Assembly (NCBI GenBank): GCA_964016885.1
Contig: OZ024741.1
Coordinates: 806,001-870,000 of the forward strand
DNA: 64,000 nt
Origin: Eledone cirrhosa
Taxonomy: Eukaryota
Direction of reading: 5' to 3'
A program made the translations under genes and the position numbers. Below, piece by piece: positions 3,076-26,383 of this stretch (the first letter of the stretch is position 1; every line of letters begins with the position of its first letter). Under the pieces are notes generated by a model. It had not been told where the DNA came from. It made no database searches and worked only from the letters and a program-made list of their open reading frames with translations.

Positions 3076-3079
3076 AACA

Positions 3080-3545: not shown

Positions 3546-3565
3546 ATATATAAGTACACACATGC

Positions 3566-4935: not shown

Positions 4936-4950
4936 CTAGACTATAATCTG

Positions 4951-6025: not shown

Positions 6026-6096
6026 TCATCCATGTATATATCTTTTTATCATTATCCTTTTCTCAAATATACACACATGACGACACTGCAAATATT

Positions 6097-6467
6097 ATGC
6101 ATGGATATGTTAACTGGTAGCTGGAGAGAGACTTTTATCATCTATATTATTCTATCTTCAGCAACAAGTGCTATATTGTCTTCCATGTTGAAAGATATTA
6201 TTTTACAATATAAGAACTTGAAACTAAGACTAACTGATGTATAGAATAGAAAAACCTAGATGTGAAAAAAAGTGGAAATTGTGCAGATTGAAGATTGAAG
6301 ATTTGACCGATGTGAAGAAACTGGAAAGATGTGTCGAAAAGAGTGAAGAATGCAGACCGTAGGAAAGACATCCCCGAGAGTGAACATTTGAAGCTAGAGC
6401 AAGGTTTTAATAGTTAGAAAGAGTAGTTGTTGATTGTTCCTGTGAAAGCAATGAAGTGGAAGAATAA
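6097..6467 (+). pseudogene. Unknown decayed ORF, paralog A, copy 2
   Basis: Copy of 1647-2023 with a 21-bp microinversion at 6131-6151. Confidence 0.38.
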
Positions 6468-6666
6468 CAGACGAGACATGAATGCAGACCCACCAGTCAG
6501 AGTTAAGCAGCGAAGCAGATGCCAATATAATATTAAATATTAGAGAATCAGTTTGTTCTTATTTCATGTTTTATTGTGAAATCGTATTGTTGAAAGCTAA
6601 AGACAATATAGCGTTTGTTGAAGATGATGTATATTTCTATGCAGAAATAATGAAACATTTGCACAG

Positions 6667-7540
6667 TCATCTTCATGATCATACGTTCGCTTTCAAGTGT
6701 GGGACATGTACTATTGAGCACCGCCTCTTTCGGCTTATACCGGTCGTTGTTCACCTCGTTGGTGATCGTTAGCGATTTGAGGTCTGCTCTCACCACCGCC
6801 GTCTATGTTTTTCCTAGTCTTCCTCTACTGCGTCTTCCTTCTACTCAAATTACTTGGCACTTGTTTACCCAGCAAACCATCTCATTCTTCTCTCCAGCAC
6901 TCCACAACTCATACCCATTTTCTCTCTCAACTCATCTCTGCTCGATGGTTGACGAACATCTAACGGGGCATGCTTCCTTCATTTCTTTGCCAGCCTTGCC
7001 ATATTCTCTGCAATTGCTGGCCATGTCTCACTTCTTCCAACCCATCTTTATTGTAGATACTGTGGCCTCGTAGTAGACTCCTCTTTCTAATCTGCTCATC
7101 TATATAGCGGAAGGTACGAACCACTTGTATAGAACCCACCTTCATTTGAAAACTGTTTCTATCACTGGTACTTCTACTGTGAAATTTTTCTGTACATTTA
7201 GTTTTCACTACCTGTTTGCTTGCTATCCCACTACATATGTTGTGTACCCCAGATGTGCATTGCGTATATTTTATAGAATTTATCCCAACTCCTTTTTAAC
7301 ATAGTGAACATGTCCCCTTTTCTATGTTTTTATTCTGTCCTCTTGCTTCCAACTACTGATTCCATAGACAGCATTTCTTCTCTAGCTTGTTTACTGATTC
7401 TGCTATAAGAACCAGATCGTCACGGACAGCCATTTTTAAACGCATCTGTTACTGACAGCACCTCTGTACAAAGCCTACACGGCCCTCACCACCTAGTTTG
7501 GTTAGGCACCACTAGATGACAGATCAAAAGGAGTTGTCTG
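6667..7540 (-). mobile_element. Decayed RTE-clade LINE fragment B, copy 2
   Basis: Copy of 2222-3075; retains VEGRRSRGRLGKT*TAVVRADL, the RTE C-terminal motif. Confidence 0.85.
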
Positions 7541-8034
7541 TCCAAAAAATGAATTGCTAAGATGGATTACATTGCCACCGGTTATATTTTATATATTTCC
7601 TAAGATTCGTTTGATTAAAAAGCTTAATTTATATTTCTTTTTACTCTGACATTATTATTTGTAGCTCTGATAAGTTTAGCTAGATTTCCAGCGTTGAAAT
7701 AGTTGTGATGTAGGTGTTGCAAGTTCCGGCTGTAAGTCGTGGGGGTGTAGTATATTGTCATGTATGTGTACATATGTCTATGTATGTATACATGTACACA
7801 TGTTGTTATTGTGTATAGTGTTTTTGTGTTTATACGTCTACAAATGTATATGCAATATTTCAATTAGCAAAGGGAGTTTACTCTTGGATATTTTAATAAA
7901 ATTGTTGTTTCCCCTCTTAGCAGGAAATTTAGTTGTTTGATAAAACTCAATATTCAAGGCTGGTTGTCTCGGTCAGTGCTAAGCGTCTGTTGAAGACTAG
8001 ACATCTAAATTACGATATACAAGTACACACATCC

Positions 8035-8373
8035 ATGCATGAATATGTTGCCAAGGAGCTGTCGAGTGATTATAATGTAGATAAGCAAAATATATGAATA
8101 CTCGCTATATTATCTTGCACTTTTATGCATATGTTTTTGCAATATAAGAATAGGAAACGAGGAAAAACTAATTCACTGAATACAGTGTGATGCAGGCAAA
8201 AGATGTTGAAATTGTGCCGAATTAAGATTGAAAATTTGACCGATGTGAAAGAAGCTGTGGAAAATGTGCATGATGTAATGAAGAATGCATTGGCTAGAAA
8301 AGACATCCCTGAGAATAAACAGAAAGAGTAGTTGCGGATTGTTCCAGTGAAAATCAATGAAGTGCAAGCATAA
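8035..8373 (+). pseudogene. Unknown decayed ORF, paralog B, copy 2
   Basis: Copy of 3566-3897. Confidence 0.38.
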
Positions 8374-8734
8374 CAGATGAGAGAAGCATGCAGGCCCAGC
8401 AGTTTGAGTTAGCTGCCAAGGAGATGCCAATATAATATAAAATATTAATGGAATCAGATAGTTTATTGATTCCCTGTTTTATTGCAAAAGCGAATCCTTT
8501 AAAGTGCGAGACAATATAGTGTTTGTCGTTGATGTATTTTTATCTATATTACTCTGCGTAAATACGGAAAAATTTATGAGATGCCCGACCCTACATAAGC
8601 CCACAAACAGACATTCAACAGTAAATATTTAATTGTCGTTTGTTTAAAAAGAAATTATTTTTCTTAATATAATTGTTTATCTGCTGGATTGGTCATTGAC
8701 CATTTTAGTAGGAGAGGGGATTTTGTTAGTGGTG

Positions 8735-10287
8735 CGTTACCTTTGCTGACTTAACTCTGAGAAAGAAAAGCAATTATATTTTTCTTTGACTGTATTTAGC
8801 CACTGAAGAATGGGTGTAGCTCCTTGGAGCACTCCAACCAATAATTCGAAGAACCATCGGGTGTAATGACTTTGGCTTTAGTGTTCGTGTAGAGCAGTGA
8901 TACTTTTGTATTCCACAAAAATCTTGATCAGGCAGTGACGATAGTCAGAATTATAGGCAATTTGCTTTAGCTCCCTCAAATATCTTCCTCAACATCAGGA
9001 TGTGACCGTTGGTTGATCTCTATCTGTGAAGCTGTTCTGGTTGGTTGAGCTTTTTGTCCATGCAGGGCTGGATTCTCTTTAGAATCATCCTGTTGAGGGT
9101 CTTTGCCACAAGTGAGGTCCCCCTGTAGTTGTTTCTGTTAGAGAGATCTGCCTTCTTTGGCAGTGGCACGAAGTTACTGATCGTCCACTTGTTCAGGGCA
9201 ACTCGTTTCTCCAGTCCCTTTTTACAGATCTCCAAGATATGAAAATCACAACTCTACATGACCTGATGCCACTCGATTTTCTCCATGGGCCTTGCCCTCC
9301 TTTATCTTCTTTTTTTGCTCTCTGAAGCTCTCTGGCAAAGGGTCCTGTCTCAATATTCAGTTTTTGTAACAGCCACCTGATCTGCCCAGTGTTCTTGGCT
9401 GTGGAGGGCATCTCATAGTTGTGTTCTAAAATGGTTCAGCCATTTCCTTTTTCCTATCCTCTGGATCTGTTTCCTTGATCTGACCTTTCCTCCATGTGAT
9501 CTCGTTGATCATCCAACTGTCAACCGTTCTCTTAACACTTTTAGTGCCTCCTCTCTGGCGTCAGTGTAAGTGGTACAGAGTGCTTCCCTCATCACCTCCA
9601 CTGTGTCCATCCTCTCCATAGGATCAGCACAGAATTGGTCCTTGGCAGGCTGCACACACCTTTGGGGTCTGCAGAACTGACATGCTTCTTCTTCTTTCTC
9701 CTCAGCATCAGTGTCTCACTTGCTTCTGCTACTGCATTGTTCAAGTAGCCGTACCTCTTTGTCAAACTCTCTACAAAGAGCACTGAACCTGTTGCTCACT
9801 TCTCCTGTGAACCTCTTCTGTAGCTTATGTTCCTTGAAAGTTCCCCAGTCATAGATTATACTGTTGGTGTAGCCTTGCTCTTTCTTAAGCTCACCCGGAC
9901 CTCACTCATAACAAGCATGTGTCCACTGTCCCAGTGTACTGAAATAGTTGTATGGTTCTGTGTTGAGAACACTATTGCGCTGCTTTTTCCTCACCAGAAA
10001 GAAATCAATCTAGGTCTTGGTCCACATCTTTTCTGGATTCTCCCTTAACGTTAGGTTGGTTGCCATCAAGTTTGCATCCAGCATGGCGTCTGTCGGTAGT
10101 CTTCCATTTCGGTTGGTGTTAGGGAATTACCAGCGCGGATCTTCTCTGCTCTCCTTACTCAGATGTGCATAGAAGTCCCTCAGAAGAATCATGTTTTGAG
10201 CTTGTGTGGTGTTGACAGCTCTACACATCTCCTCATGAAATTCCTCCGCATTCACATCACTGGCTCCCTTGGTAGGACTATAAGCTG
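8735..10287 (-). mobile_element. Decayed RTEX-like LINE (endonuclease, linker and RT), longest copy
   Basis: SAYSPTKG..RDFYAH endonuclease motifs at ~10285-10160; ORF 9020-9235 WTISNFVPLPKKADLSNRNNYRGTSLVAKTLNRMILKRIQP; GVLQG at ~8820-8834. Many internal deletions. The clade is assigned from motif recognition only. Confidence 0.83.
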
Positions 10288-11347
10288 ACATCCGGTTTTA
10301 AACTCCTTTTATTGCCTGCAGGACTATGATAAAAAGGAGAGGGCTAAGAACAGCCCTGGTGGACACGGACCTGCATGCTAAATTCCTCGCTCTAGTCATT
10401 GGTAACCCTAACTTTGCTGATTGTTTCTATATACATGGCTTGGTACAGCCCTCATAAGCTATTCATCTACTTTAAATTTTCTAAGAGCCGACCGGATTAT
10501 AGCATGCTGGACTGTGTCGAAGGCTTTTTCCATTTCGACAAATGCTAGGTAGATTGGCTTACTTTTAGCTAGGTACTTTTCCTGTAACTGCCTCACATAG
10601 GTGAGGACATGAGTGGTGCCTTTTTTTTTGTACAAAGCATAATTGCATATCATGTATTTTCACCCTGTTCCTAATCAACTGTGCTCCAACTCTGTTACTT
10701 TCATGACCTGGTCCATCAGCTTTATACCTCTCTAGTTTCCTCTATCTAGTGCATCACCTTTACCTTTATCAGTTGACCATGATGCTGCTGCACGAATGTT
10801 TTTGTACGACGCCCTTTAGTATTACCTAGTTAACAATGGTCTGATCTACCGACCCAGATGCCTTGAGCATCTCGGCAGCTATACCCGATAGACTGGTTGC
10901 CTTCCCCGTCTTCATATCTTTGATTGCCATACTACATTGCTGCTGACTTGTTCTGCTAGCCCCTCTATAGGGTTCACTTTGGGTATGGTATCTTTTCCCC
11001 ACGCATTCTCCCCATTTAGTAATCTTTCATACTGGCTCTTCCACGCATCTCCTCAGAAATTGTGAGTGCAAGCTGACCTTTATCATTCTGGATACACTTT
11101 TGTCCAATGACATCACAATTCTCTCTGACACACTGCTTCGTAATCTGGAACACCTGTTTCTGTTCGTCGTGTTGCAAAAGATGCTTGAAATTCCTATCCT
11201 CTACCTCCCTTCTAGCTAAGTATACTTGTCGCCTAGCTTCGCTCCTGGTCTCTCTGTAATGTGCCCTGTTTTTCCATTCTTTCCATGCCTGTCTCTTAGC
11301 CTTAACTGCCTCATCTACCATATTGTTCTACCACCAAGTGACTCTCC
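10288..11347 (-). mobile_element. Decayed RTE-clade LINE fragment A, copy 3
   Basis: ORF 10459-10653 VRQLQEKYLAKSKPIYLAFVEMEKAFD; ORF 11016-11321. Confidence 0.9.
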
Positions 11348-11421
11348 TCATCCATGTATATATCTTTTTATCATTATCTTTTTCTCAAATATCCACACAT
11401 GACGACACACATGCAAATATT

Positions 11422-11783
11422 ATGCATGGATATGTTAACTGGTAGCTGGAGAGAGAATAATATAGATGATAAAAGTCTATCTTCAGCAACAAGTGCTATA
11501 TTGTCTCCCATGTTGAAAGATATTATTTTACAATATTAGAACTTGAAACTAAGACTAACTGATGTATAGAATAGAAAGACCTAGATGTGAAAAGTGGAAA
11601 TTGTGCAGATTGAAGATTTGACCGATGTGAAGAAACTGGAAAGATGTGTCGAAAAGAGGGAAGAATTCAGTCCGTTGGAAAGACATCCCCGAGAGTGAAC
11701 ATTGGAAGCTAGAGCAAGGTTTTAAGAGTTAGAAAGAGTAGTTGTTGATTGTTCCTGTGAAAAGCAATGAAGTGGAAGCATAA
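11422..11783 (+). pseudogene. Unknown decayed ORF, paralog A, copy 3
   Basis: Copy of 1647-2023. Confidence 0.38.
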
Positions 11784-11980
11784 CAGACGACAAGAATGCA
11801 GACCCAGCAGTCGGAGTTAAGCAGCGAAGCAGATGCCAATATATTATTAAATATTAGAGAATCAGTTTGTTCTTATTTCATGTTTTATTGTGAAATCGTA
11901 TTGTTGAAAGCTAAAGACAATATAGCGTTTGTTGAAGATGATGTATATTTCTATGCAGAAATAATGAAACATTTGCACAG

Positions 11981-12830
11981 TCATCTTCATGATCATACGT
12001 TCGCTTTCAAGTGTGGGACATGTACTATTGAGCACCACCTCTCTCGGCTTATACCAGTCGTTGGTCACCTCGTTGGTGATCGTTAGGTCTGTTTTTCCTA
12101 GTCTTCCTTCTACTGGAATTACTTGGCACTTGTTTACCCAGCAAACCATCTTATTCTTCTCTCCTGCACACAACTAGTACCCATTTTCTCTCTCAACTCA
12201 TCTCTGCTCGGTCGTCGACGCACATCCAACGGAGCATGCTTCCTTCATTTCTTTGCCAGCCTTGGCATATTGTCTGCAATTGCTGGCCATGTCTCACTTC
12301 TTCCAACCCATCCTTATTGTAGATATTCTGGCCTCGTAGTAGCCTCCTCTCTTTCTAATCTGCTCATCTATGTAGCGGAAGGTACGAACCACTTGTATAG
12401 AACCCACCTTCATTTGAAAACTGTTTCTATCACTGTCACTTCTACTGTGAAATTTCTCTGTACAGGTAGTTTTCACTACCTGTTTGCTTGCTATCCCACT
12501 ACATATGTTGAGTACCCCAGATGTGCATTGCGTATATTTTATAGAATTTATCCCAGCTCCTTTTCAACATAGGGAGCATGTCCTCTTTTCTATGTTTTTA
12601 TTCTGTCCTCTTGCTTCCAACTGTTTCCATAGACAGCATTTCTTCTTTAGCTTGTTTACTGATTCTGCTATAAGAACCAGATCGTCATGGACAGCCAGTT
12701 TTAAACGCATCTGTTACTGACAGTACCTCCACAAAGCGTACACTGCCCTCACAAGACATTCCGCAACACCTAGTTTGGTTAGGCACCACCAGATGACAGA
12801 TCATGGTACCCTACCAAAGGAGTTATCTGT
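11981..12830 (-). mobile_element. Decayed RTE-clade LINE fragment B, copy 3
   Basis: ORF 12294-12476 ..IQVVRTFRY..GGYYEARISTIRMGWKK matches the RTE post-RT region. Confidence 0.85.
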
Positions 12831-13341
12831 CAAAAAAATTAATTGCTAAGATGGATTACATTGCCACCGGTTATATTTCCTAAGACTCTTTTGATTAAAA
12901 AGCTTAATTTTTTATTTCTTTTTACTATTAGTTGTAGCTCTTATAAGTTTAGCTAGATTGCCAGCGTTGAAATAGTTGCGCTTCAGTTGTGATGTATGTG
13001 TTGCAAGTTCCGGCTGTAAGTCGTGGGGGTGTAGTATATTGTCATGAATGTGTACATATGATGTCTATGTATGTATACACGTACACATGTTGTATACACT
13101 ATACACATGTGTATAGTGTTTTTGTGTTTATACGTCTACAAATGTATATGCAATATTTCAATTAGCAAAGGGAATTTACTCTTGGATATTTTAATAAAAT
13201 TACGAGTTGTTTCCCCTCTTAGCAGGAAATTTAGTTTGATAAAACTGAATTGTCAAGGCTGGTTGTCTCGGTCAATTTTAAAGCGTCTGTTGAAGACTAG
13301 ACATCGAAATTACGATATCCATGCATGGATGTGTGTACTTG

Positions 13342-13668
13342 TATATGTTGTCAAGTAGCTGGCGTGTGAGAATATGTAGATAATCAAAATATATGAACAC
13401 TCGCTATATTATCTCGCACTTTTATGGTTTTTGCAATATAAGAATAGGAAACGAAGAAAAACTAATTCACTGAATACTGTGTGATGCAGGCAAAAGATGT
13501 TGAAATTGTGCCGAATTAAGATTGAAAATTTGACCGATGTGGAGCAGCTGTGGAAAATGTGCATGATGTAGTGAAGAATGCAGTGGGTAGAAAAGACATC
13601 CCCGAAAATAAACATAGAAAGAGTAGTTGCGGATTGTTCCAGTGAAAATCAATGAAGTACAAGCATAA
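13342..13668 (+). pseudogene. Unknown decayed ORF, paralog B, copy 3 (start disrupted by microinversion)
   Basis: Copy of 3566-3897; the ATG region is inverted at 13315-13346. Confidence 0.35.
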
Positions 13669-13989
13669 CAGACAAGAGAGAGAAGAATGCAGGCCCAGCA
13701 GTTTGAGTTAGCTGCCAAGCAGATGCCAATAGAATATAAAATATTAGGGAATCAGATAGTTTATCGATTCCCTGTTTTATTGCAAAAGTAAATTGTTGAA
13801 AGTGCGAGACAATATAGTGTTTGTTTGTGATTAAAAATATTATCATTGGGTAAGATGTGCTTCTAAACACTACATGTAAACATGTAGAACACAGACAGTC
13901 ACAAAGACCTTCAATACTAAATTTTAAAAACAAATGGTTATTTAATTTCTATAATTAATTGATAATCGGTGGCCATGTAATCCATCTTA

Positions 13990-14632
13990 TCTATATATAA
14001 AACTGAAGATGTCCGAGTTCGAATCGCTAAAGCTTGTGAACCACCCAACGGACTATTTTCAAACTTTACACATGTAATACTTATGTTTCAGAGATTGTTC
14101 TGATCACCCCCCCCCCCAAAAAAAAAAGATTTCAACTTTTCTAAGCCCACAGGGACGACATTAGCGGTTTAGCGATCTCACTCTATAATTCTTAGTCTCT
14201 TTTTCGATAGACGTACTTACAACGCCGCGCCCTTATTATATCTGTATGTCTGACTGTCTGCATTACGTCACTTCCTTTAGGTTGTGTGTTTGAATCACTT
14301 AAACTCGAAGTACCCAACCGATATTTTTTCAAACTTTAAATGCGTATTACTTATGCTTAAGCTAGTGTTATGCAAATTAAAAATTTCAACTTTTTTTATT
14401 ATCTCCTGGGGCCCGCATTAGATGAAAAACTTTTTTTTATCTTAGGACTTTTTGTAGCCGTTACGTCTAGCCGATTTTCGCTAAATTTCAAGGCATATGA
14501 TGGTCATAAAAATAAAATCATTTTCTTGATCCCCTAGGGCCCGCATTAGGTGAAAACCTGCCTTTTTCTTGCTTCATCCATCGGAGTATTCCAAAATACT
14601 TTATATGGTGCAAGGCCAGGTACCACTGCTAG
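13990..14632 (+). mobile_element. Non-autonomous Helitron (~640 bp)
   Basis: Starts A|TCTATATATAAAACT and ends ..GCAAGGCCAGGTACCACTGCTAG|T: TC and CTAG termini, inserted between A and T, no TSD. Internal duplicated modules at 14015-14090 vs 14285-14356 and 14406-14430 vs 14534-14558. Removing it restores colinearity with segment X (empty site at ~3115). The 3' hairpin is degenerate. Confidence 0.85.
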
Positions 14633-14676
14633 TATATTATAGATTTCATGAAACTCGTTTATTTATAAACGTTTAT

Positions 14677-15075
14677 TTAAATCTTTTTTACCATAACGTC
14701 ATTTCGACTATAGATCTGATAAGTTGAGCTAGATTGCCAGCGTCGAAATAGTTTCGCTTTAGTTAGGATGTAGGTGTTAAAAGGGCCGGATGTGAGCCTT
14801 GGGTGTAGTCTATTTTCACACATACGTAGATATATACATGTGTATATATATCTAAACACGTGTATGAAAGTATGTAACCCTGTAACATTGAGCTTTCCGA
14901 TAACCCTTTGTAAATATGCAATGTCGGTTTGATAAGCACGACAAAGAATTGAAGATACTAGGCAGATTAACATGTTAGTTGAACGACCGTTGACTTGAAT
15001 TGCGCGTGAAAATACGTGGGTGCAGTTGGTGGGGCTGACGATTTTAAGTTTGTTTTTGTCTTGTTGAATAATCAT
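14677..15075 (-). CDS. Orphan 132-aa ORF, possibly the least decayed member of the segment X family
   Basis: ATG in CACGCCATG context, open for 132 codons in AT-rich DNA; the 3' part is homologous to segment X copies. No recognisable domain. Confidence 0.2.
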   Translation of the reverse strand: MIIQQDKNKLKIVSPTNCTHVFSRAIQVNGRSTNMLICLVSSILCRAYQTDIAYLQRVIGKLNVTGLHTFIHVFRYIYTCIYLRMCENRLHPRLTSGPFNTYILTKAKLFRRWQSSSTYQIYSRNDVMVKKI

Positions 15076-15289
15076 GGCGTGCTACTTTGTAGTACTTGTA
15101 TTGCAGGCCGTTGTTCCGGTGGTTAAGGTAAGTGGCGATGTTATTACTGTTTGGGTATTTTAAGTTTTCGTCTAGTTGGTTTGGGGTGGCGGTCGGATTG
15201 GTTTCAGATTAACGGTCTGTGTGTGGTTTACAGTTGTGATTAGTTTGTGTAAGAAGCGAGAAGAATGCCGTGATATATATTTATATTTT

Positions 15290-15710
15290 TAGAAAGGGAG
15301 AAACTGTATCTTAATCATTTTATCTGTAGAAACGTTCGAGATAGATTTTATTAAGGGGAAAGTTTTTGAGATAGGACAGTTAACAAATTAAGTTATCTCT
15401 GTTATTAGTTTGACGCATTTCTATTTCGAACTATAGACATATATATGTAAAATTATCCCAGACAATTAGAAATTTAATTTCCGCAAAATATATAATTCCA
15501 CGGGAGAGAATGTACTATCTAATCAAATGATTTCTCTCCTTTTAGTGCACTTTATATTTCTAAAGGGAGAGAAGTCTATTTAACAATATCTGTTATCTCC
15601 CCTTGATAGACTTTAATAATTATAATTTTTTAGAAAAATATATTTTATTCTGGAAAAAAGGTATTAGTAACAGTTTAATTTTGAAAAATAGTTGTCTCCC
15701 CTTGCTACAC
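15290..15710. repeat. Cluster of degenerate GGGAGA-N(~25)-TCTCCC dyads
   Basis: Examples: 15502-15540 GGGAGAGAA..TTCTCTCCT; 15564-15602 AGGGAGAGA..TTATCTCCCC; ~15368-15400 GAGATA..TATCTC; half-sites at ~15295 and ~15695. Confidence 0.55.
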
Positions 15711-16149
15711 TTTGACTATAATGTAATACATTATGTTGTGACATTACAGCTGTTTTTATCAAGTAATTTTAACGCCCGGAATTTATAATTTAGTTATTAA
15801 CTTAATATTAGCTCCCGAGAATCAACTGAAATAAGTTGTTTCCCCTTATTTGACTCAGTTTATTTTTATCTGGTCTTAACATAAGCTATCGCCGTTTTTA
15901 TAGTGCAGGAATTAGTTACAATGTCTAGGTATCTACACTTAATTTATTTAAATGTAAGGTTAATAAAATTTGCAAGGTAATTTTAATTAACATTATTTGA
16001 AATGGAATCTAGTTGGACAAATTTATTATCTGTCGAACTTAATTAATTGCGAGACGCCCTTTTCTGAACGCACAGCGACGGCATTAGGAAAAAACAGTCA
16101 ATTTTTACGGACAAATGTATAATTCAGTTTAAATTATATAGTATGTAAG

Positions 16150-16801
16150 TTGTAACATAATATCCCGCCGTTTTTCTGAGAAAACAAACTATAAAAACGG
16201 CGTGGATTTACGTTACATTATATATTATTTACTTTTAAGTAAGGTAGATAATATGGTTTATTAAATAAATAGGTTGTTTCCCTTGGCCGGACTTTAAGTA
16301 ACATAAATTTCCGCCGTTTTTATAGTGCTTCATAGTATAAAAAAATGCTGAAATTTCTGTTACACCGAAATAAATTAAAAGTATGGCCAAGGGAAACAAC
16401 CGATTTATTAAATAAACAATTTTATCTCCCTTATTTCAAACTAAAAACCAATTACATTATATACAATTCACTTTTATAAAATATAATTTAACGTAAATTG
16501 ACGCCGTTTTAGCAGTTCGTTTTCTTATATTATTTACGAACTCTTTCCTCAGTCTAATAGTAAGTAAACAAACTATAATAAAAACGGCGGTGATTTACGT
16601 AACATTATATCTAATTTTCTTATAAAATATTGTTAGTTGATTTATTTTTTGATTGAATTAAGGGAGATAACATTGTTTATTTAATAAAAAGGTTGTTTCC
16701 CTTGGCAGGCTTAAGTTTATTATATTTATTTCTGTGTAACATTAATATTCGCCGCTTTTATAGTGCTTCACACATTTAAAAAAAATACGTATTTACGTTA
16801 C
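16150..16801. repeat. Telomere-adjacent nested palindrome cassette (three ~170-230 bp modules in +,-,+ orientation)
   Basis: 16256-16288 matches the reverse complement of 16385-16417 at 31 of 33 positions by manual alignment. 16181-16345 is a direct repeat of 16562-16790. CGCCGTTTT and AAAACGGCG boxes occur on both strands. Confidence 0.9.
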
Positions 16802-16850
16802 AACGGGATATTTCCTCAGCTACCTAGGCTAGTTAATAGTCCCCCTTTAC

Positions 16851-17195
16851 TTGGGGTTGGGGTTTGGGTTGGGGTTGGGGTTGGGGTTGGGGTTCGGGGT
16901 TCGGGGTTGGGGTTGGGGTTCGGGGTTGGGGTTGGGGTTAGGGTTGGGGTTGGGGTTGGGGTTGGGGTTGGGGTTGGGGTTGGGGTTGGGGTTGGGGTTG
17001 GGGTTGGGGTTGGGGTTGGGGTTGGGGTTGGGGTTGGGGTTGGGGTTGGGGTTGGGGTTGGGGTTGGGGTTGGGGTTGGGGTTGGGGTTGGGGTTGGGGT
17101 TGGGGTTGGGGTTGGGGTTGGGGTTGGGGTTGGGGTTGGGGTTGGGGTTGGGGTTGGGGTTGGGGTTGGGGTTGGGGTTGGGGTTGGGGTTGGGG
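16851..17195 (+). repeat. Proximal telomere variant-repeat block (TTGGGG)n, ~57 units
   Basis: Read directly; the first ~95 bp include TTTGGG, three TTCGGGG and one TTAGGG, after which it is pure TTGGGG. Confidence 0.97.
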
Positions 17196-20100
17196 TTAGG
17201 GTTAGGGTTAGGGTTAGGGTTAGGGTTAGGGTTAGGGTTAGGGTTAGGGTTAGGGTTAGGGTTAGGGTTAGGGTTAGGGTTAGGGTTAGGGTTAGGGTTA
17301 GGGTTAGGGTTAGGGTTAGGGTTAGGGTTAGGGTTAGGGTTAGGGTTAGGGTTAGGGTTAGGGTTAGGGTTAGGGTTAGGGTTAGGGTTAGGGTTAGGGT
17401 TAGGGTTAGGGTTAGGGTTAGGGTTAGGGTTAGGGTTAGGGTTAGGGTTAGGGTTAGGGTTAGGGTTAGGGTTAGGGTTAGGGTTAGGGTTAGGGTTAGG
17501 GTTAGGGTTAGGGTTAGGGTTAGGGTTAGGGTTAGGGTTAGGGTTAGGGTTAGGGTTAGGGTTAGGGTTAGGGTTAGGGTTAGGGTTAGGGTTAGGGTTA
17601 GGGTTAGGGTTAGGGTTAGGGTTAGGGTTAGGGTTAGGGTTAGGGTTAGGGTTAGGGTTAGGGTTAGGGTTAGGGTTAGGGTTAGGGTTAGGGTTAGGGT
17701 TAGGGTTAGGGTTAGGGTTAGGGTTAGGGTTAGGGTTAGGGTTAGGGTTAGGGTTAGGGTTAGGGTTAGGGTTAGGGTTAGGGTTAGGGTTAGGGTTAGG
17801 GTTAGGGTTAGGGTTAGGGTTAGGGTTAGGGTTAGGGTTAGGGTTAGGGTTAGGGTTAGGGTTAGGGTTAGGGTTAGGGTTAGGGTTAGGGTTAGGGTTA
17901 GGGTTAGGGTTAGGGTTAGGGTTAGGGTTAGGGTTAGGGTTAGGGTTAGGGTTAGGGTTAGGGTTAGGGTTAGGGTTAGGGTTAGGGTTAGGGTTAGGGT
18001 TAGGGTTAGGGTTAGGGTTAGGGTTAGGGTTAGGGTTAGGGTTAGGGTTAGGGTTAGGGTTAGGGTTAGGGTTAGGGTTAGGGTTAGGGTTAGGGTTAGG
18101 GTTAGGGTTAGGGTTAGGGTTAGGGTTAGGGTTAGGGTTAGGGTTAGGGTTAGGGTTAGGGTTAGGGTTAGGGTTAGGGTTAGGGTTAGGGTTAGGGTTA
18201 GGGTTAGGGTTAGGGTTAGGGTTAGGGTTAGGGTTAGGGTTAGGGTTAGGGTTAGGGTTAGGGTTAGGGTTAGGGTTAGGGTTAGGGTTAGGGTTAGGGT
18301 TAGGGTTAGGGTTAGGGTTAGGGTTAGGGTTAGGGTTAGGGTTAGGGTTAGGGTTAGGGTTAGGGTTAGGGTTAGGGTTAGGGTTAGGGTTAGGGTTAGG
18401 GTTAGGGTTAGGTTAGGGTTAGGGTTAGGGTTAGGGTTAGGGTTAGGGTTAGGGTTAGGGTTAGGGTTAGGGTTAGGGTTAGGGTTAGGGTTAGGGTTAG
18501 GGTTAGGGTTAGGGTTAGGGTTAGGGTTAGGGTTAGGGTTAGGGTTAGGGTTAGGGTTAGGGTTAGGGTTAGGGTTAGGGTTAGGGTTAGGGTTAGGGTT
18601 AGGGTTAGGGTTAGGGGTTAGGGTTAGGGTTAGGGTTAGGGTTAGGGTTAGGGTTAGGTTAGGGGTTAGGGTTAGGGTTAGGGTTAGGGTTAGGGTTAGG
18701 GTTAGGGTTAGGGTTAGGGTTAGGGTTAGGGTTAGGGTTAGGGTTAGGGTTAGGGTTAGGGTTAGGGTTAGGGTTAGGGTTAGGGTTAGGGTTAGGGTTA
18801 GGGTTAGGGTTAGGGTTAGGGTTAGGGTTAGGGTTAGGGTTAGGGTTAGGGTTAGGGTTAGGGTTAGGGTTAGGGTTAGGGTTAGGGTTAGGGTTAGGGT
18901 TAGGGTTAGGGTTAGGGTTAGGGTTAGGGTTAGGGTTAGGGTTAGGGTTAGGGTTAGGTTAGGGTTAGGGTTAGGGTTAGGGTTAGGGTTAGGGTTAGGG
19001 TTAGGGTTAGGGTTAGGTTAGGGTTAGGGTTAGGGTTAGGGTTAGGGTTAGGGTTAGGGTTAGGGTTAGGGTTAGGGTTAGGGTTAGGGTTAGGGTTAGG
19101 GTTAGGGTTAGGTTAGGGTTAGGGTTAGGGTTAGGGTTAGGGTTAGGGTTAGGGTTAGGGTTAGGGTTAGGGTTAGGGTTAGGGTTAGGGTTAGGGTTAG
19201 GGTTAGGGTTAGGTTAGGGTTAGGGTTAGGGTTAGGGTTAGGGTTAGGGTTAGGGTTAGGGTTAGGGTTAGGGTTAGGGTTAGGGTTAGGGTTAGGGTTA
19301 GGGTTAGGGTTAGGGTTAGGGTTAGGGTTAGGGTTAGGGTTAGGGTTAGGGTTAGGGTTAGGGTTAGGGTTAGGGTTAGGGTTAGGGTTAGGGTTAGGGT
19401 TAGGGTTAGGGTTAGGGTTAGGGTTAGGGTTAGGGTTAGGGTTAGGGTTAGGGTTAGGGTTAGGGTTAGGGTTAGGGTTAGGGTTAGGGTTAGGGTTAGG
19501 GTTAGGGTTAGGGTTAGGGTTAGGGTTAGGGTTAGGGTTAGGGTTAGGGTTAGGGTTAGGGTTAGGGTTAGGGTTAGGGTTAGGGTTAGGGTTAGGGTTA
19601 GGTTAGGGTTAGGGTTAGGGTTAGGGTAGGGTTAGGGTTAGGGTTAGGGTTAGGGTTAGGGTTAGGGTTAGGGTTAGGGTTAGGGTTAGGGTTAGGGTTA
19701 GGGTTAGGGTTAGGTTAGGGTTAGGGTTAGGGTTAGGGTTAGGGTTAGGGTTAGGGTTAGGGTTAGGGTTAGGGTTAGGGTTAGGGTTAGGGTTAGGGTT
19801 AGGGTTAGGGTTAGGGTTAGGGTTAGGGTTAGGGTTAGGGTTAGGGTTAGGGTTAGGGTTAGGGTTAGGGTTAGGGTTAGGGTTAGGGTTAGGGTTAGGG
19901 TTAGGGTTAGGGTTAGGGTTAGGGTTAGGGTTAGGGTTAGGGTTAGGGTTAGGGTTAGGGTTAGGGTTAGGGTTAGGGTTAGGGTTAGGGTTAGGGTTAG
20001 GGTTAGGGTTAGGTTAGGGTTAGGGTTAGGGTTAGGGTTAGGGTTAGGGTTAGGGTTAGGGTTAGGGTTAGGGTTAGGGTTAGGGTTAGGGTTAGGGTTA

Positions 20101-23100
20101 GGGTTAGGGTTAGGGTTAGGGTTAGGGTTAGGGTTAGGGTTAGGGTTAGGGTTAGGGTTAGGGTTAGGGTTAGGGTTAGGGTTAGGGTTAGGGTTAGGGT
20201 TAGGGTTAGGGTTAGGGTTAGGGTTAGGGTTAGGGTTAGGGTTAGGGTTAGGGTTAGGGTTAGGGTTAGGGTTAGGGTTAGGGTTAGGGTTAGGGTTAGG
20301 GTTAGGGTTAGGGTTAGGGTTAGGGTTAGGGTTAGGGTTAGGGTTAGGGTTAGGGTTAGGGTTAGGGTTAGGGTTAGGGTTAGGGTTAGGGTTAGGGTTA
20401 GGGTTAGGGTTAGGGTTAGGGTTAGGGTTAGGGTTAGGGTTAGGGTTAGGGTTAGGGTTAGGTTAGGGTTAGGGTTAGGGTTAGGGTTAGGGTTAGGGTT
20501 AGGGTTAGGGTTAGGGTTAGGGTTAGGTTAGGGTTAGGGTTAGGGTTAGGGTTAGGGTTAGGGTTAGGGTTAGGGTTAGGGTTAGGGTTAGGGTTAGGGT
20601 TAGGGTTAGGGTTAGGGTTAGGGTTAGGGTTAGGGTTAGGGTTAGGGTTAGGGTTAGGGTTAGGGTTAGGGTTAGGGTTAGGGTTAGGGTTAGGGTTAGG
20701 GTTAGGGTTAGGGTTAGGGTTAGGGTTAGGGTTAGGGTTAGGGTTAGGGTTAGGGTTAGGGTTAGGGTTAGGGTTAGGGTTAGGGTTAGGGTTAGGGTTA
20801 GGGTTAGGGTTAGGGTTAGGGTTAGGGTTAGGGTTAGGGTTAGGGTTAGGGTTAGGGTTAGGGTTAGGGTTAGGGTTAGGGTTAGGGTTAGGGTTAGGGT
20901 TAGGGTTAGGGTTAGGGTTAGGGTTAGGGTTAGGGTTAGGGTTAGGGTTAGGGTTAGGGTTAGGGTTAGGGTTAGGGTTAGGGTTAGGGTTAGGGTTAGG
21001 GTTAGGGTTAGGGTTAGGGTTAGGTTAGGGTTAGGGTTAGGGTTAGGGTTAGGGTTAGGGTTAGGGTTAGGGTTAGGGTTAGGGTTAGGGTTAGGGTTAG
21101 GGTTAGGGTTAGGGTTAGGGTTAGGGTTAGGGTTAGGGTTAGGGTTAGGGTTAGGGTTAGGGTTAGGGTTAGGGTTAGGGTTAGGGTTAGGGTTAGGGTT
21201 AGGGTTAGGGTTAGGGTTAGGGTTAGGGTTAGGGTTAGGGTTAGGGTTAGGGTTAGGGTTAGGGTTAGGGTTAGGGTTAGGGTTAGGGTTAGGGTTAGGG
21301 TTAGGGTTAGGTTAGGGTTAGGGTTAGGGTTAGGGTTAGGGTTAGGGTTAGGGTTAGGGTTAGGGTTAGGGTTAGGGTTAGGGTTAGGGTTAGGGTTAGG
21401 GTTAGGGTTAGGGTTAGGGTTAGGGTTAGGGTTAGGGTTAGGGTTAGGGTTAGGGTTAGGGTTAGGGTTAGGTTAGGGTTAGGGTTAGGGTTAGGGTTAG
21501 GGTTAGGGTTAGGGTTAGGGTTAGGGTTAGGGTTAGGGTTAGGGTTAGGGTTAGGGTTAGGGTTAGGGTTAGGGTTAGGGTAGGGTTAGGGTTAGGGTTA
21601 GGGTTAGGGTTAGGGTTAGGGTTAGGGTTAGGGTTAGGGTTAGGGTTAGGGTTAGGGGTTAGGGTTAGGGTTAGGGTTAGGGTTAGGGTTAGGGTTAGGG
21701 TTAGGGTTAGGGTTAGGGTTAGGGTTAGGGTTAGGGTTAGGGTTAGGGTTAGGGTTAGGGTTAGGGTTAGGGTTAGGGTTAGGGTTAGGGTTAGGGTTAG
21801 GGTTAGGGTTAGGGTTAGGGTTAGGGTTAGGGTTAGGGTTAGGGTTAGGGTTAGGGTTAGGGTTAGGGTTAGGGTTAGGGTTAGGGTTAGGGTTAGGGTT
21901 AGGGTTAGGGTTAGGGTTAGGGTTAGGGTTAGGGTTAGGGTTAGGGTTAGGGTTAGGGTTAGGGTTAGGGTTAGGGTTAGGGTTAGGGTTAGGGTTAGGG
22001 TTAGGGTTAGGGTTAGGGTTAGGGTTAGGGTTAGGGTTAGGGTTAGGGTTAGGGTTAGGGTTAGGGTTAGGGTTAGGGTTAGGGTTAGGGTTAGGGTTAG
22101 GGTTAGGGTTAGGGTTAGGGTTAGGGTTAGGGTTAGGGTTAGGGTTAGGGTTAGGGTTAGGGTTAGGGTTAGGGTTAGGGTTAGGGTTAGGGTTAGGGTT
22201 AGGGTTAGGGTTAGGGTTAGGGTTAGGGTTAGGGTTAGGGTTAGGGTTAGGGTTAGGGTTAGGGTTAGGGTTAGGGTTAGGGTTAGGGTTAGGGTTAGGG
22301 TTAGGGTTAGGGTTAGGGTTAGGGTTAGGGTTAGGGTTAGGGTTAGGGTTAGGGTTAGGGTTAGGGTTAGGGTTAGGGTTAGGGTTAGGGTTAGGGTTAG
22401 GGTTAGGGTTAGGGTTAGGGTTAGGGTTAGGGTTAGGGTTAGGGTTAGGGTTAGGGTTAGGGTTAGGGTTAGGGTTAGGGTTAGGGTTAGGGTTAGGGTT
22501 AGGGTTAGGGTTAGGGTTAGGGTTAGGGTTAGGGTTAGGGTTAGGTTAGGGTTAGGGTTAGGGTTAGGGTTAGGGTTAGGGTTAGGGTTAGGGTTAGGGT
22601 TAGGGTTAGGGTTAGGGTTAGGGTTAGGGTTAGGGTTAGGGTTAGGGTTAGGGTTAGGGTTAGGGTTAGGGTTAGGGTTAGGGTTAGGGTTAGGGTTAGG
22701 GTTAGGGTTAGGGTTAGGGTTAGGGTTAGGGTTAGGGTTAGGGTTAGGGTTAGGGTTAGGGTTAGGGTTAGGGTTAGGGTTAGGGTTAGGGTTAGGGTTA
22801 GGGTTAGGGTTAGGGTTAGGGTTAGGGTTAGGGTTAGGGTTAGGTTAGGGTTAGGGTTAGGGTTAGGGTTAGGGTTAGGGTTAGGGTTAGGGTTAGGTTA
22901 GGGTTAGGGTTAGGGTTAGGGTTAGGTTAGGGTTAGGGTTAGGGTTAGGGTTAGGGTTAGGGTTAGGGTTAGGGTTAGGGTTAGGGTTAGGGTTAGGGTT
23001 AGGGTTAGGGTTAGGGTTAGGGTTAGGGTTAGGGTTAGGGTTAGGGTTAGGGTTAGGGTTAGGGTTAGGGTTAGGGTTAGGGTTAGGGTTAGGGTTAGGG

Positions 23101-26100
23101 TTAGGGTTAGGGTTAGGGTTAGGGTTAGGGTTAGGGTTAGGGTTAGGGTTAGGGTTAGGGTTAGGGTTAGGGTTAGGGTTAGGGTTAGGGTTAGGGTTAG
23201 GGTTAGGGTTAGGGTTAGGGTTAGGGTTAGGGTTAGGGTTAGGGTTAGGGTTAGGGTTAGGGTTAGGGTTAGGGTTAGGGTTAGGGTTAGGGTTAGGGTT
23301 AGGGTTAGGGTTAGGGTTAGGGTTAGGGTTAGGGTTAGGGTTAGGGTTAGGGTTAGGGTTAGGGTTAGGGTTAGGGTTAGGGTTAGGGTTAGGGTTAGGG
23401 TTAGGGTTAGGGTTAGGGTTAGGGTTAGGGTTAGGGTTAGGGTTAGGGTTAGGGTTAGGGTTAGGGTTAGGGTTAGGTTAGGGTTAGGGTTAGGGTTAGG
23501 GTTAGGGTTAGGTTAGGGTTAGGGTTAGGGTTAGGGTTAGGGTTAGGGTTAGGGTTAGGGTTAGGGTTAGGGTTAGGGTTAGGGTTAGGGTTAGGGTTAG
23601 GGTTAGGGTTAGGGTTAGGGTTAGGGTTAGGGTTAGGGTTAGGGTTAGGGTTAGGGTTAGGGTTAGGTTAGGGTTAGGGTTAGGGTTAGGGTTAGGGTTA
23701 GGGTTAGGGTTAGGGTTAGGGTTAGGGTTAGGGTTAGGGTTAGGGTTAGGGTTAGGGTTAGGGTTAGGGTTAGGGTTAGGGTTAGGGTTAGGGTTAGGGT
23801 TAGGGTTAGGGTTAGGGTTAGGGTTAGGGTTAGGGTTAGGGTTAGGGTTAGGGTTAGGGTTAGGGTTAGGGTTAGGGTTAGGGTTAGGGTTAGGGTTAGG
23901 GTTAGGGTTAGGGTTAGGGTTAGGGTTAGGGTTAGGGTTAGGGTTAGGGTTAGGGTTAGGGTTAGGGTTAGGGTTAGGGTTAGGGTTAGGGTTAGGGTTA
24001 GGGTTAGGGTTAGGGTTAGGGTTAGGGTTAGGGTTAGGGTTAGGGTTAGGGTTAGGGTTAGGGTTAGGGTTAGGGTTAGGGTTAGGGTTAGGGTTAGGGT
24101 TAGGGTTAGGGTTAGGGTTAGGGTTAGGGTTAGGGTTAGGGTTAGGGTTAGGGTTAGGGTTAGGGTTATGGTTAGGGTTAGGGTTAGGGTTAGGGTTAGG
24201 GTTAGGGTTAGGGTTAGGGTTAGGGTTAGGGTTAGGGTTAGGGTTAGGGTTAGGGTTAGGGTTAGGGTTAGGGTTAGGGTTAGGGTTAGGGTTAGGGTTA
24301 GGGTTAGGGTTAGGGTTAGGGTTAGGGTTAGGGTTAGGGTTAGGGTTAGGGTTAGGGTTAGGGTTAGGGTTAGGGTTAGGGTTAGGGTTAGGGTTAGGGT
24401 TAGGGTTAGGGTTAGGGTTAGGGTTAGGGTTAGGGTTAGGGTTAGGGTTAGGGTTAGGGTTAGGGTTAGGGTTAGGGTTAGGGTTAGGGTTAGGGTTAGG
24501 GTTAGGGTTAGGGTTGGTTAGGGTTAGGGTTAGGGTTAGGGTTAGGGTTAGGGTTAGGGTTAGGGTTAGGGTTAGGGTTAGGGTTAGGGTTAGGGTTAGG
24601 GTTAGGGTTAGGGTTAGGGTTAGGGTTAGGGTTAGGGTTAGGGTTAGGGTTAGGGTTAGGGTTAGGGTTAGGGTTAGGGTTAGGGTTAGGGTTAGGGTTA
24701 GGGTTAGGGTTAGGGTTAGGGTTAGGGTTAGGGTTAGGGTTAGGGTTAGGGTTAGGGTTAGGGTTAGGGTTAGGGTTAGGTTAGGGTTAGGGTTAGGGTT
24801 AGGGTTAGGGTTAGGGTTAGGGTTAGGGTTAGGGTTAGGGTTAGGGTTAGGGTTAGGGTTAGGGTTAGGGTTAGGGTTAGGGTTAGGGTTAGGGTTAGGG
24901 TTAGGGTTAGGGTTAGGGTTAGGGTTAGGGTTAGGGTTAGGGTTAGGGTTAGGGTTAGGGTTAGGGTTAGGGTTAGGGTTAGGGTTAGGGTTAGGGTTAG
25001 GGTTAGGGTTAGGGTTAGGGTTAGGGTTAGGGTTAGGTTAGGGTTAGGGTTAGGGTTAGGGTTAGGGTTAGGGTTAGGGTTAGGGTTAGGGTTAGGGTTA
25101 GGGTTAGGGTTAGGTAGGGTTAGGGTTAGGGTTAGGGTTAGGGTTAGGGTTAGGGTTAGGGTTAGGGTTAGGGTTAGGTTAGGGTTAGGGTTAGGGTTAG
25201 GGTTAGGGTTAGGGTTAGGGTTAGGGTTAGGGTTAGGGTTAGGGTTAGGGTTAGGGTTAGGGTTAGGGTTAGGGTTAGGGTTAGGGTTAGGGTTAGGGTT
25301 AGGGTTAGGGTTAGGTTAGGGTTAGGGTTAGGGTTAGGGTTAGGGTTAGGGTTAGGGTTAGGGTTAGGGTTAGGGTTAGGGTTAGGGTTAGGGTTAGGGT
25401 TAGGGTTAGGGTTAGGGTTAGGGTTAGGGTTAGGGTTAGGGTTAGGGTTAGGGTTAGGGTTAGGGTTAGGGTTAGGGTTAGGGTTAGGGTTAGGGTTAGG
25501 GTTAGGGTTAGGGTTAGGGTTAGGGTTAGGGTTAGGGTTAGGTTAGGGTTAGGGTTAGGGTTAGGGTTAGGGTTAGGGTTAGGTTAGGGTTAGGGTTAGG
25601 GTTAGGGTTAGGGTTAGGGTTAGGGTTAGGGTTAGGGTTAGGGTTAGGGTTAGGGTTAGGGTTAGGGTTAGGGTTAGGGTTAGGTTAGGGTTAGGGTTAG
25701 GGTTAGGGTTAGGGTTAGGGTTAGGGTTAGGGTTAGGGTTAGGGTTAGGGTTAGGGTTAGGGTTAGGGTTAGGGTTAGGGTTAGGGTTAGGGTTAGGGTT
25801 AGGGTTAGGGTTAGGGTTAGGGTTAGGGTTAGGGTTAGGGTTAGGGTTAGGGTTAGGGTTAGGGTTAGGGTTAGGGTTAGGGTTAGGTTAGGGTTAGGGT
25901 TAGGGTTAGGGTTAGGGTTAGGGTTAGGGTTAGGGTTAGGGTTAGGGTTAGGGTTAGGGTTAGGGTTAGGGTTAGGGTTAGGTTAGGGTTAGGGTTAGGG
26001 TTAGGGTTAGGGTTAGGGTTAGGGTTAGGGTTAGGGTTAGGGTTAGGGTTAGGGTTAGGGTTAGGGTTAGGGTTAGGGTTAGGGTTAGGGTTAGGGTTAG

Positions 26101-26260
26101 GGTTAGGGTTAGGGTTAGGGTTAGGGTTAGGGTTAGGGTTAGGGTTAGGGTTAGGGTTAGGGTTAGGGTTAGGGTTAGGGTTAGGGTTAGGGTTAGGGTT
26201 AGGGTTAGGGTTAGGGTTAGGGTTAGGGTTAGGGTTAGGGTTAGGTGGTTAGGGTTAGGG

Positions 26261-26301
<41 letters not shown>

Positions 26302-26383
26302 GAGGTTAGGGTTAGGGTTAGGGTTAGGGGTTAGGGTTAGGGTTAGGGTTAGGGTTAGGGTTAGGGTTAGGGTTAGGGTTAGG
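17196..26383 (+). repeat. Telomeric array (TTAGGG)n, ~9.2 kb (~1,530 units)
   Basis: Read directly; the G-strand runs away from the subtelomere, as expected for a right-hand chromosome end. Sporadic 1-bp indels begin at ~18410. Confidence 0.99.

What the first reader, a model, noticed from the sequence alone, without database searches (positions are those of the whole stretch)
16150..16850. Ordered P-Q-P-Q'-P-Q-P palindrome cassette ending ~50 bp before the telomere
Seen: two dyad types alternate. P = GTAAC..AAT..CGCCGTTTT-spacer-AAAACGGCG..ATT..GTTAC at 16152-16216, 16298-16363, 16489-16602 and 16736-16801 (right arms of the second and fourth are degenerate). Q = AAGGGAGATAAC-N20-GTTGTTTCCCTT at 16241-16284, 16389-16432 (inverted) and 16660-16703; in the last copy the 12-bp stem pairs fully if G-U is allowed. 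Together they form two overlapping ~350-400 bp palindromes centred near 16335 and 16545. GC-containing boxes are retained in very AT-rich DNA while spacers drift. Inference, alternatives: subterminal transposase or recombinase sites of an element capped by telomerase; a telomere-addition or breakage signal; a TERRA promoter or origin; or scars of fold-back repair. I do not recognise it as a described element, and it is the best candidate for a novel system here.
Basis: partly seen in the sequence, partly recalled or inferred. Interest (0 to 1): 0.75.

Follow-up and report, generated by a model that had tools for sequence, protein, structure and literature searches.

The report
Transposon-scrap palindromes beside telomeres
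The ordered palindromes are real and recur beside most long telomere tracts checked in this animal genome, but one of their two parts is a decayed miniature mariner transposon, the order varies from end to end and the stretch is more variable than the junk next to it, so it is likely transposon debris that was copied, flipped and then shared between chromosome ends rather than a working telomere signal.

Summary
The P-Q-P-Q'-P-Q-P order is real, but it is the distal tip of a roughly 18-kb subtelomeric block shared between chromosome ends: 27 of 28 copies examined abut a long telomere array in the same orientation. P is a decayed 74-80 bp mariner MITE (102 exact TIR hits genome-wide; a 1.48-kb parent with Mos1-like transposase found). 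Q is an older 12-bp dyad motif, also dispersed (213 strand hits) and of unpinned origin. The order is not fixed: 7 of 28 ends carry all seven units, P4 is present in 9, one end has no P. Telomere addition lies 56-373 bp from the last Q dyad. The cassette is more diverged between ends (92.9%) than neighbouring junk (95.5-96.9%), P arms vary like spacers, and micro-inversions cluster here. Best reading: MITE insertions beside Q, inverted and direct duplication, inter-end exchange, repeated truncation and healing. One lead remains: Q arms vary less than the rest of the cassette (p about 0.001), but not less than the upstream flank or against older paralogs. The scan noted subtelomeric macrosatellites in this genome before, not this cassette.

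The parts
1..13827 (.). Subtelomeric macrosatellite, about three units of 4.4-5.3 kb made largely of LINE-like fragments (RTE label recalled, no Pfam confirmation); each unit carries one Q-like dyad (3397-3446, 7870-7915, about 13168-13217)
   Evidence: 96.9% mean ungapped identity to 20 other ends; begins about 1.6 kb left of the window (L124)
13988..14632 (+). Decayed copy of an abundant, about 0.9-kb non-autonomous Helitron-like element (5' TC, 3' GC-rich hairpin plus CTAG; family label from recalled features)
   Evidence: 13 dispersed copies at 73-79% start at the same point; very high depth in reads
14633..16145 (.). AT-rich block with older, degenerate Q-type half-sites and dyads (about 15294, 15500-15542, 15563-15603, 15691-15702, 15835-15846), a faint P (15732-15786) and a P left half (15876-15906); older paralogs without a telomere array exist on C23 and C7
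16146..16217 (+). P1: decayed mariner MITE, spacer subtype A (inner end matches the parent's 5' end); outermost TIR bases lost
   Evidence: nhmmer E=1e-17 with subtype A profile, 6e-12 with B; blastn 79-84% to dispersed MITEs
16241..16284 (+). Q1 dyad (12-bp arms, 20-bp AT-rich spacer)
   Evidence: present in 25 of 28 ends
16298..16366 (+). P2: decayed mariner MITE, spacer subtype B (inner end matches the parent's 3' end)
   Evidence: nhmmer E=3e-11 with B, 2e-9 with A
16389..16432 (-). Q2: inverted duplicate of the Q unit
16488..16604 (.). P3: two right halves of a P1-type MITE facing each other across a 68-bp spacer, likely the turning point of an inverted duplication
   Evidence: each half 83-88% identical to the P1 right arm
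16660..16703 (+). Q3 dyad, the most widely retained unit
   Evidence: present in 27 of 28 ends
16735..16804 (+). P4: decayed duplicate of the P2-type MITE; deleted at most ends
   Evidence: nhmmer E=9e-6 with B; at least 80% present in 9 of 28 ends
16805..16850 (.). Truncated tail; other ends continue up to about 150 bp further through more Q-like half-sites before telomere repeats begin
16851..26383 (+). Telomeric array: proximal TTGGGG/TTCGGG variant zone (to about 17195), then TTAGGG; ends at a 200-N scaffold gap (26384-26583)

Best explanation
The cassette is the outer tip of a subtelomeric block shared by many chromosome ends, its P units are decayed miniature mariner transposons and its Q units a dispersed 12-bp dyad motif, and its ordered palindromes were likely made by local inverted and direct duplication of a short P-Q-P unit and likely spread by exchange between ends, with no likely function of their own. 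Steps: (1) shown: an AT-rich block with several Q-type dyads sits between a macrosatellite plus Helitron-like remnant and the telomere; (2) shown: P matches a dispersed 74-80 bp MITE whose TIRs belong to a 1.48-kb mariner, and P1 and P2 fit different spacer subtypes; inferred: at least two separate insertions beside Q; (3) inferred: hairpin-guided template switching or fold-back duplicated the 140-190 bp unit, once inverted, giving the two nested palindromes; shown: in-place micro-inversions and unit deletions between repeats are common here; (4) shown: the whole block is 88-97% alike between ends; inferred: ectopic recombination or terminal translocation homogenises it; (5) shown: junctions form a nested series of truncation points; inferred: repeated terminal loss and telomerase healing.
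For: 27 of 28 copies examined abut a long telomere array in the same orientation; the 28th is a relic with a stub of about 100 bp. The 10 kb fetched at 20 ends are shared throughout. Identity to the window falls towards the tip: macrosatellite 96.9%, Helitron remnant 95.5%, upstream block 95.7%, cassette 92.9% (20 ends). P TIR: 102 exact hits, control 0; 24 of 27 examined are 74-80 bp two-TIR elements, 18 of 24 flanked by TA on both sides. The parent L109 has HTH_48 E=2e-12 and Transposase_1 hits and matches Mos1 at E=2e-21; all 9 family copies examined are broken. P arms pi 0.078 versus 0.076 for non-arm cassette DNA. All seven units are present in 7 of 28 ends; P4 in 9; L059 has no P1-P4. 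Last Q dyad to telomere: 56-373 bp. 11 of 16 in-place micro-inversion sites found in 6.1 kb fall in 15370-16640. An older paralog on C23 has a single P-remnant/Q/P-remnant unit.
Against: Q arms vary less between ends than the rest of the cassette (pi 0.019 vs 0.076; block permutation p=0.0011 by derived alleles), and all 28 copies keep at least one Q dyad. The Q-P junction is nearly confined to these loci (35 of 37 hits), so the cassette is telomere-specific. The origin of Q was not pinned to a named transposon; several dispersed Q dyads lie in DNA with no repeat match among my loci. No RNA, chromatin or binding data were available, so lack of function is inferred from sequence only.
Confidence: 0.76

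Rival explanations
1. P is debris, but the Q arms are binding sites for a host protein that were recruited as a subtelomeric boundary, TERRA promoter or backup cap, and were multiplied next to the telomere.
For: Q arms pi 0.019 vs 0.076 in the cassette (p=0.0011 by derived alleles; vs all non-arm DNA 15100-16703 p=0.015 by pi). At least one Q dyad in 28 of 28 copies. Q-like half-sites recur from 15294 up to the junction. Perfect arms with unrelated spacers occur at dispersed sites. Precedent: Rap1 binds the yeast TelKO subtelomeric element in vitro (PMC12408736, abstract).
Against: Not significant against the upstream flank 15100-15540 (p=0.27 by alleles, 0.076 by pi) or all non-arm DNA by alleles (p=0.07). 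Upstream Q-like sites are not better kept than their surroundings in two older paralogs (C23 0.82 vs 0.85, p=0.82; C7 0.87 vs 0.82, p=0.16). Ends are related and were found by similarity to the cassette, so retention is partly ascertainment. Conversion between Q copies could give the same signal. Long telomere arrays without Q exist on contig C496.
Confidence: 0.14
2. The cassette is the subterminal region of a telomere-specific mobile element, with P and Q as its transposase or recombinase sites, capped by telomerase.
For: P is a real transposase-binding TIR. Reiterated 12-bp motifs in both orientations resemble subterminal repeats of some DNA transposons (recalled). Two non-telomeric paralogs of the Q-bearing block exist.
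Against: No coding ORF in the terminal block. P's own family is dispersed and broken in 9 of 9 copies examined. The block is a patchwork of separate elements. Q's 20-bp spacer does not fit tyrosine-recombinase sites (11-13 bp arms, 6-8 bp spacer; PMC3212892 passage), and 0 of 9 DUF3504 loci have a Q dyad within 1.5 kb. The search with the C23 paralog found only the telomeric copies, C23 and C7:30.2 Mb as long matches.
Confidence: 0.05
3. The cassette is a programmed break and telomere-healing signal like the nematode SFE motif.
For: It is palindromic and lies just inside the telomere at 27 of 28 copies; 13 long arrays are scaffold-internal.
Against: Healing points are spread over 56-373 bp from the last Q dyad and one falls before Q3, whereas the SFE is a 29-bp motif with healing at conserved sites inside it (PMC13060919, abstract). 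12 of 13 internal arrays end at or within 1.4 kb of a 200-N scaffold gap, so they are likely mis-placed real ends. No intact cassette continuing into non-telomeric DNA without telomere repeats was found.
Confidence: 0.03
4. The palindromes are an assembly or sequencing artefact at a contig end.
For: The array ends at a scaffold gap; fold-back chimeras occur in long reads (general knowledge).
Against: Arms are only 85-88% complementary, the same structure with independent variants recurs at 27 other loci, and contigs and reads from other runs cover it with the majority alleles.
Confidence: 0.01

Closest known systems
Human Made1, the MITE of the mariner Hsmar1 (PMC6326780, passages read)
   Same: A miniature element made of a pair of mariner TIRs around a short spacer, dispersed with broken full-length parents; the parent here matches Mos1 and SETMAR structures.
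   Different: A different mariner family, with a longer inner spacer of two subtypes. No intact or domesticated transposase of this family was found (9 of 9 broken). Here decayed copies were duplicated next to telomeres.
Human subterminal duplicons (PMC2323237, abstract and section 10 read)
   Same: Sequence directly next to terminal TTAGGG, shared by many ends at about 90-99%, with variable organisation and distance to the tract, and with internal relic copies with or without a telomere stub.
   Different: One family serves nearly all ends found here, and its tip is a nested palindrome of MITE debris; no gene-like transcripts were tested.
Chlamydomonas Sultan/Spacer subtelomere (10.1101/2021.01.29.428817, abstract) and Naumovozyma TelKO (PMC12408736, abstract)
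   Same: A species-specific repeat architecture common to most chromosome ends.
   Different: Here the tandem array is proximal and a unique block is distal (the reverse of Sultan/Spacer); no protein binding or transcription is shown.
Oscheius tipulae SFE break-and-heal motif (PMC13060919, abstract)
   Same: Degenerate palindrome at chromosome ends.
   Different: No fixed healing site, no required unit, 700 bp of transposon-derived repeats rather than a 29-bp motif.

Membership tests
Mariner MITE (Made1-like), for P | Short non-coding element made of a TIR pair | tested here: met
   24 of 27 dispersed hits examined are 74-80 bp two-TIR elements; P1, P2, P4 match their profiles at E 1e-17 to 9e-6
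Mariner MITE (Made1-like), for P | TIRs shared with a mariner that encodes a transposase | tested here: met
   L109, 1.48 kb, same TIRs at both ends; HTH_48, Transposase_1, DDE_3; Mos1 E=2e-21; four more near full-length copies at 89-93%
Mariner MITE (Made1-like), for P | Mariner motifs WVPHEL, YSPDLAP and D,D34D spacing in the parent | tested here: met
   Seen in the ORFs; the last D is read across a frameshift; motif names recalled
Mariner MITE (Made1-like), for P | TA target-site duplication | tested here: inconclusive
   18 of 24 dispersed copies have TA on both sides, many inside (TA)n tracts; the cassette copies have lost their outermost TIR bases, so no TSD can be read there
Subterminal duplicon / telomere-associated sequence | Lies directly inside the terminal repeat tract at several ends, same orientation | tested here: met
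   27 of 28 copies; 14 lie within about 20 kb of a contig end, 12 of 13 internal arrays end at a scaffold gap
Subterminal duplicon / telomere-associated sequence | High identity between ends with structural variation | tested here: met
   88-97% identity, unit deletions, duplications and inversions
Subterminal duplicon / telomere-associated sequence | Promoter of telomeric RNA or site of telomere-protein binding (true of some members) | not testable with these tools
   No RNA holder listed; no chromatin data
SFE-type programmed break signal | Telomere added at a fixed site within the motif | tested here: not met
   Junctions 56-373 bp from the last Q dyad across 28 copies
SFE-type programmed break signal | Germline keeps DNA beyond the motif, soma loses it | not testable with these tools
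   No paired germline and soma data
Tyrosine-recombinase site (Crypton type), for Q | 11-13 bp inverted arms with a 6-8 bp spacer | tested here: not met
   Arms 12 bp but spacer 20 bp here and 16-25 bp in the dispersed copies listed; definition from PMC3212892 passage
Tyrosine-recombinase site (Crypton type), for Q | Associated with a recombinase ORF | tested here: not met
   0 of 9 DUF3504 loci carry a Q dyad within 1.5 kb; no ORF in the terminal block
Non-autonomous Helitron, for 13988-14632 | 5' TC, 3' hairpin plus CTAG, no TIR, many dispersed copies | tested here: met
   Seen in the four dispersed copies printed; defining features recalled, no library hit

The most novel reading that the evidence does not exclude
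A host protein binds the 12-bp Q arms, and octopod chromosome ends have recruited and multiplied this dispersed dyad as a telomere-adjacent boundary or TERRA promoter, with mariner MITE hairpins acting as the engine that amplifies it.
Probability: 0.12. Interest if true: 0.6.

Novelty: new member of a known kind. Interest (0 to 1): 0.27.

Why it matters
As it stands it gives a base-level picture of a subtelomere in what is probably an octopod, a group for which my searches found no such description. It is a clean case of how MITE hairpins, micro-inversions, inter-end exchange and healing build ordered-looking palindromes without selection. It is also useful in practice: the block marks real chromosome ends, and 12 of them appear to be scaffolded into chromosome interiors. 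If Q arms were bound by a protein, it would be a first cis-element of cephalopod telomere regulation.

Tried and rejected
Literature search for the Q motif strings gave only unrelated primers (listing of 40 of 219 seen). Searches for mollusc or octopus subtelomeric palindromes found nothing relevant (listings only). Crypton origin of Q: not supported. KolobokP and aphid mariner papers were irrelevant (passages). Two TIRs 1.46 kb apart on C2 were two separate MITEs, not a full element. The 30 best PF01359 loci are mostly other mariner families: one P half-site in 30. Rfam: only sub-threshold hairpin matches in 13800-16860. No RNA holder listed for the cassette; this is no evidence on expression. 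RAD-seq runs cover it too thinly to map junctions. 46 terminal stretches of contigs (4-10 kb) held no telomere array, so they could not test 'ends without cassette'. The two Q-P junction hits away from telomeres are unrelated and carry no mariner TIR. One dispersed Q locus searched against the genome returned only a neighbouring common repeat. Pfam did not confirm the RTE-like or Penelope-like fragments; those labels are recalled. The array at C27 was not followed to its end, and wider flanks of the C23 paralog were not read. L053 was left out of the diversity test because it is rearranged (27 of 28 rows used). No supplementary files were read; repeat libraries in supplements could already hold the MITE or Q.

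Full report
Observation. The seven units and both nested palindromes are present at the stated coordinates. The long arms are 85% and 88% complementary and fold far below shuffles as single-stranded DNA (z = -14.8 and -18.6; upstream control -0.3). The motifs extend further left than reported: a P left half at 15876-15906 and Q-like half-sites back to about 15294. The telomeric array runs from about 16851 to 26383, begins with a TTGGGG variant zone, and stops at a 200-N scaffold gap.

Context. The window lies in a 3.0-Gb animal genome, probably an octopod; that label comes from earlier scan notes and was not tested here. A search with 16100-16850 returned the window and about two dozen long copies at 84-93% identity. 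I examined 28 copies including the window. 27 abut a long telomere array in the same orientation; the 28th (C10:54.9 Mb, L053) has only a stub of about 100 bp followed by other DNA. Fourteen lie within about 20 kb of a contig end. Of 13 internal long arrays, 12 end at or within 1.4 kb of a 200-N gap and one was not followed to its end; I infer that these are real chromosome ends placed inside scaffolds. The sharing is not special to the cassette: the macrosatellite and the 3-kb terminal block are shared too. Mean ungapped identity to the window over 20 ends is 96.9% for the macrosatellite, 95.5% for a Helitron-like remnant, 95.7% for the upstream block and 92.9% for the cassette.

What P is. 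The short hits led to dispersed copies of the whole P hairpin in unrelated flanks. A 25-base TIR motif has 102 exact hits, control 0. Of 27 distinct hits examined, 24 are 74-80 bp two-TIR elements and 18 of these have TA on both sides. One convergent pair encloses a 1.48-kb element (L109) with HTH_48 (E=2e-12), Transposase_1 and DDE_3 matches and a Mos1 match at E=2e-21. Four more near full-length copies are 89-93% identical, and all nine copies examined are broken. The MITE is the two ends of this mariner fused, like human Made1 (PMC6326780, passages). Two spacer subtypes exist. P1 fits subtype A best (E 1e-17 vs 6e-12), P2 and P4 fit B best (3e-11 vs 2e-9; 9e-6 vs 1e-3), and P3 is two P1-type right halves facing each other. 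I infer at least two insertions followed by duplication.

What Q is. The dyad pattern has 213 strand hits, control 0. Besides the telomeric copies it occurs in a subfamily of another Helitron-like element, in a repeated unit on C28 about 500 bp from a histone 3' stem-loop, in the macrosatellite unit, in a second segmental duplication, and in DNA with no repeat match among my loci. I could not name its source. It predates most of the cassette: a paralog on C23 (82-85% over the first 680 bp, no telomere array) carries one P-remnant/Q/P-remnant unit, and a partial paralog on C7 carries the upstream Q sites. The Q-P junction itself is telomere-specific: 35 of 37 hits are at these loci and the other two are unrelated.

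Is it under constraint? The order is not fixed. All seven units are at least 80% present in 7 of 28 copies; P1 in 22, Q1 25, P2 24, Q2 25, P3 26, Q3 27, P4 9; L059 lacks P1-P4 and still carries a telomere; L053 has extra units. Between 27 ends, P arms (pi 0.078) vary like non-arm cassette DNA (0.076). Q arms vary less (0.019; block permutation p=0.0011 against cassette non-arm DNA by derived alleles). Against this, the effect is weak or absent when the background is all non-arm DNA (p=0.07 by alleles, 0.015 by pi) or the upstream flank (p=0.27 and 0.076). Upstream Q-like sites are not better kept in the two older paralogs (p=0.82 and 0.16). Ends are related, so these p values overstate independence, and conversion between Q copies could explain the signal. 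Long telomere arrays without cassette exist on contig C496, and a 1-kb one on C17; C496 may be an assembly oddity.

Junctions. The distance from the last Q dyad to the first telomeric repeats is 56-373 bp (median 107). The tails form a nested series of one longer sequence that contains more Q-like half-sites, and one end is cut before Q3. This fits repeated truncation and healing (inferred), not a fixed-site signal such as the nematode SFE (PMC13060919, abstract).

Mechanism. In-place inversions of 25-47 bp separate the window from other ends at 16 sites in 6.1 kb, 11 of them in 15370-16640; one also shows as a strand-switch joint in an independent contig set (16451/16491). P4 is removed at most ends by a deletion that joins 16710 to the P4 right end. 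The region is thus visibly shaped by hairpin-guided rearrangement. I infer that the same process duplicated a 140-190 bp P-half/Q/P-half unit, once inverted, producing the two palindromes, and that ectopic exchange spread the result. Fold-back formation of inverted duplications is documented in human DNA (PMC3907307, search listing only).

Comparison. It works like, and meets the positional tests for, subterminal duplicons such as those of human ends, which also vary in organisation and leave internal relics (PMC2323237, section 10). Other parallels are Chlamydomonas Sultan/Spacer and yeast TelKO (abstracts). Q fails the geometry of tyrosine-recombinase sites (PMC3212892, passages). Tc1-mariner elements, MITEs and Helitrons are abundant in Octopus vulgaris (PMC13282606, passages). 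My searches found no description of this cassette (scan look-ups).

Verdict. A real, genome-wide telomere-adjacent structure, but most likely built from transposon debris by known processes: new member of a known kind, interest 0.27. The open lead is possible protein binding at Q arms (about 0.12-0.14).

Noticed in passing
G000 internal arrays: window 26384-26583; L304, L305, L307, L309, L311, L312, L314, L316, L319, L320, L322: Twelve cassette-plus-telomere ends are followed by a 200-N gap inside chromosome scaffolds, so they are likely mis-scaffolded real ends; the block could be used to correct the assembly.
   Followed up: partly
L208/L209 (contig C496, 27 kb), L209:3798-4118: Two long telomere arrays point away from each other with only about 320 bp between them and no cassette: a tiny linear fragment or a chimeric contig.
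   Followed up: partly
L210-L216 (C2:242.0-243.6 Mb) and L206 (C9:21.59 Mb): Large interstitial satellites of degenerate TTAGGG; 34 of 62 pattern hits fall in the C2 region.
   Followed up: partly
L111, L115 (C28:124.69-124.99 Mb): Repeated unit of 28-45 kb with a histone 3' stem-loop, a Q dyad about 500 bp away and a telomere-like satellite beside it.
   Followed up: partly
L123:6900-7400 (C23:2.96 Mb): An older copy of the terminal block ends in one telomere-like repeat joined to a Penelope-like reverse-transcriptase fragment (label recalled, no Pfam hit): possibly an old chromosome end captured at a break.
   Followed up: partly
L053 (C10:54.917 Mb): Relic end about 370 kb from the contig end with extra P/Q units, the longest tail and a short variant telomere stub.
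   Followed up: yes
L116, L118-L122: A second segmental duplication family with its own Q variant; three copies lie 75-120 kb from cassette loci and one near the start of C15.
   Followed up: partly
window 26584-64000: A 37-kb TTG-rich satellite (18-bp period) follows the gap; unrelated to the cassette.
   Followed up: no
window 1630-2220 and 3540-4090 (and repeats): Each macrosatellite unit holds two diverged (about 68%) copies of a 500-bp element with terminal inverted similarity, possibly another old MITE.
   Followed up: no
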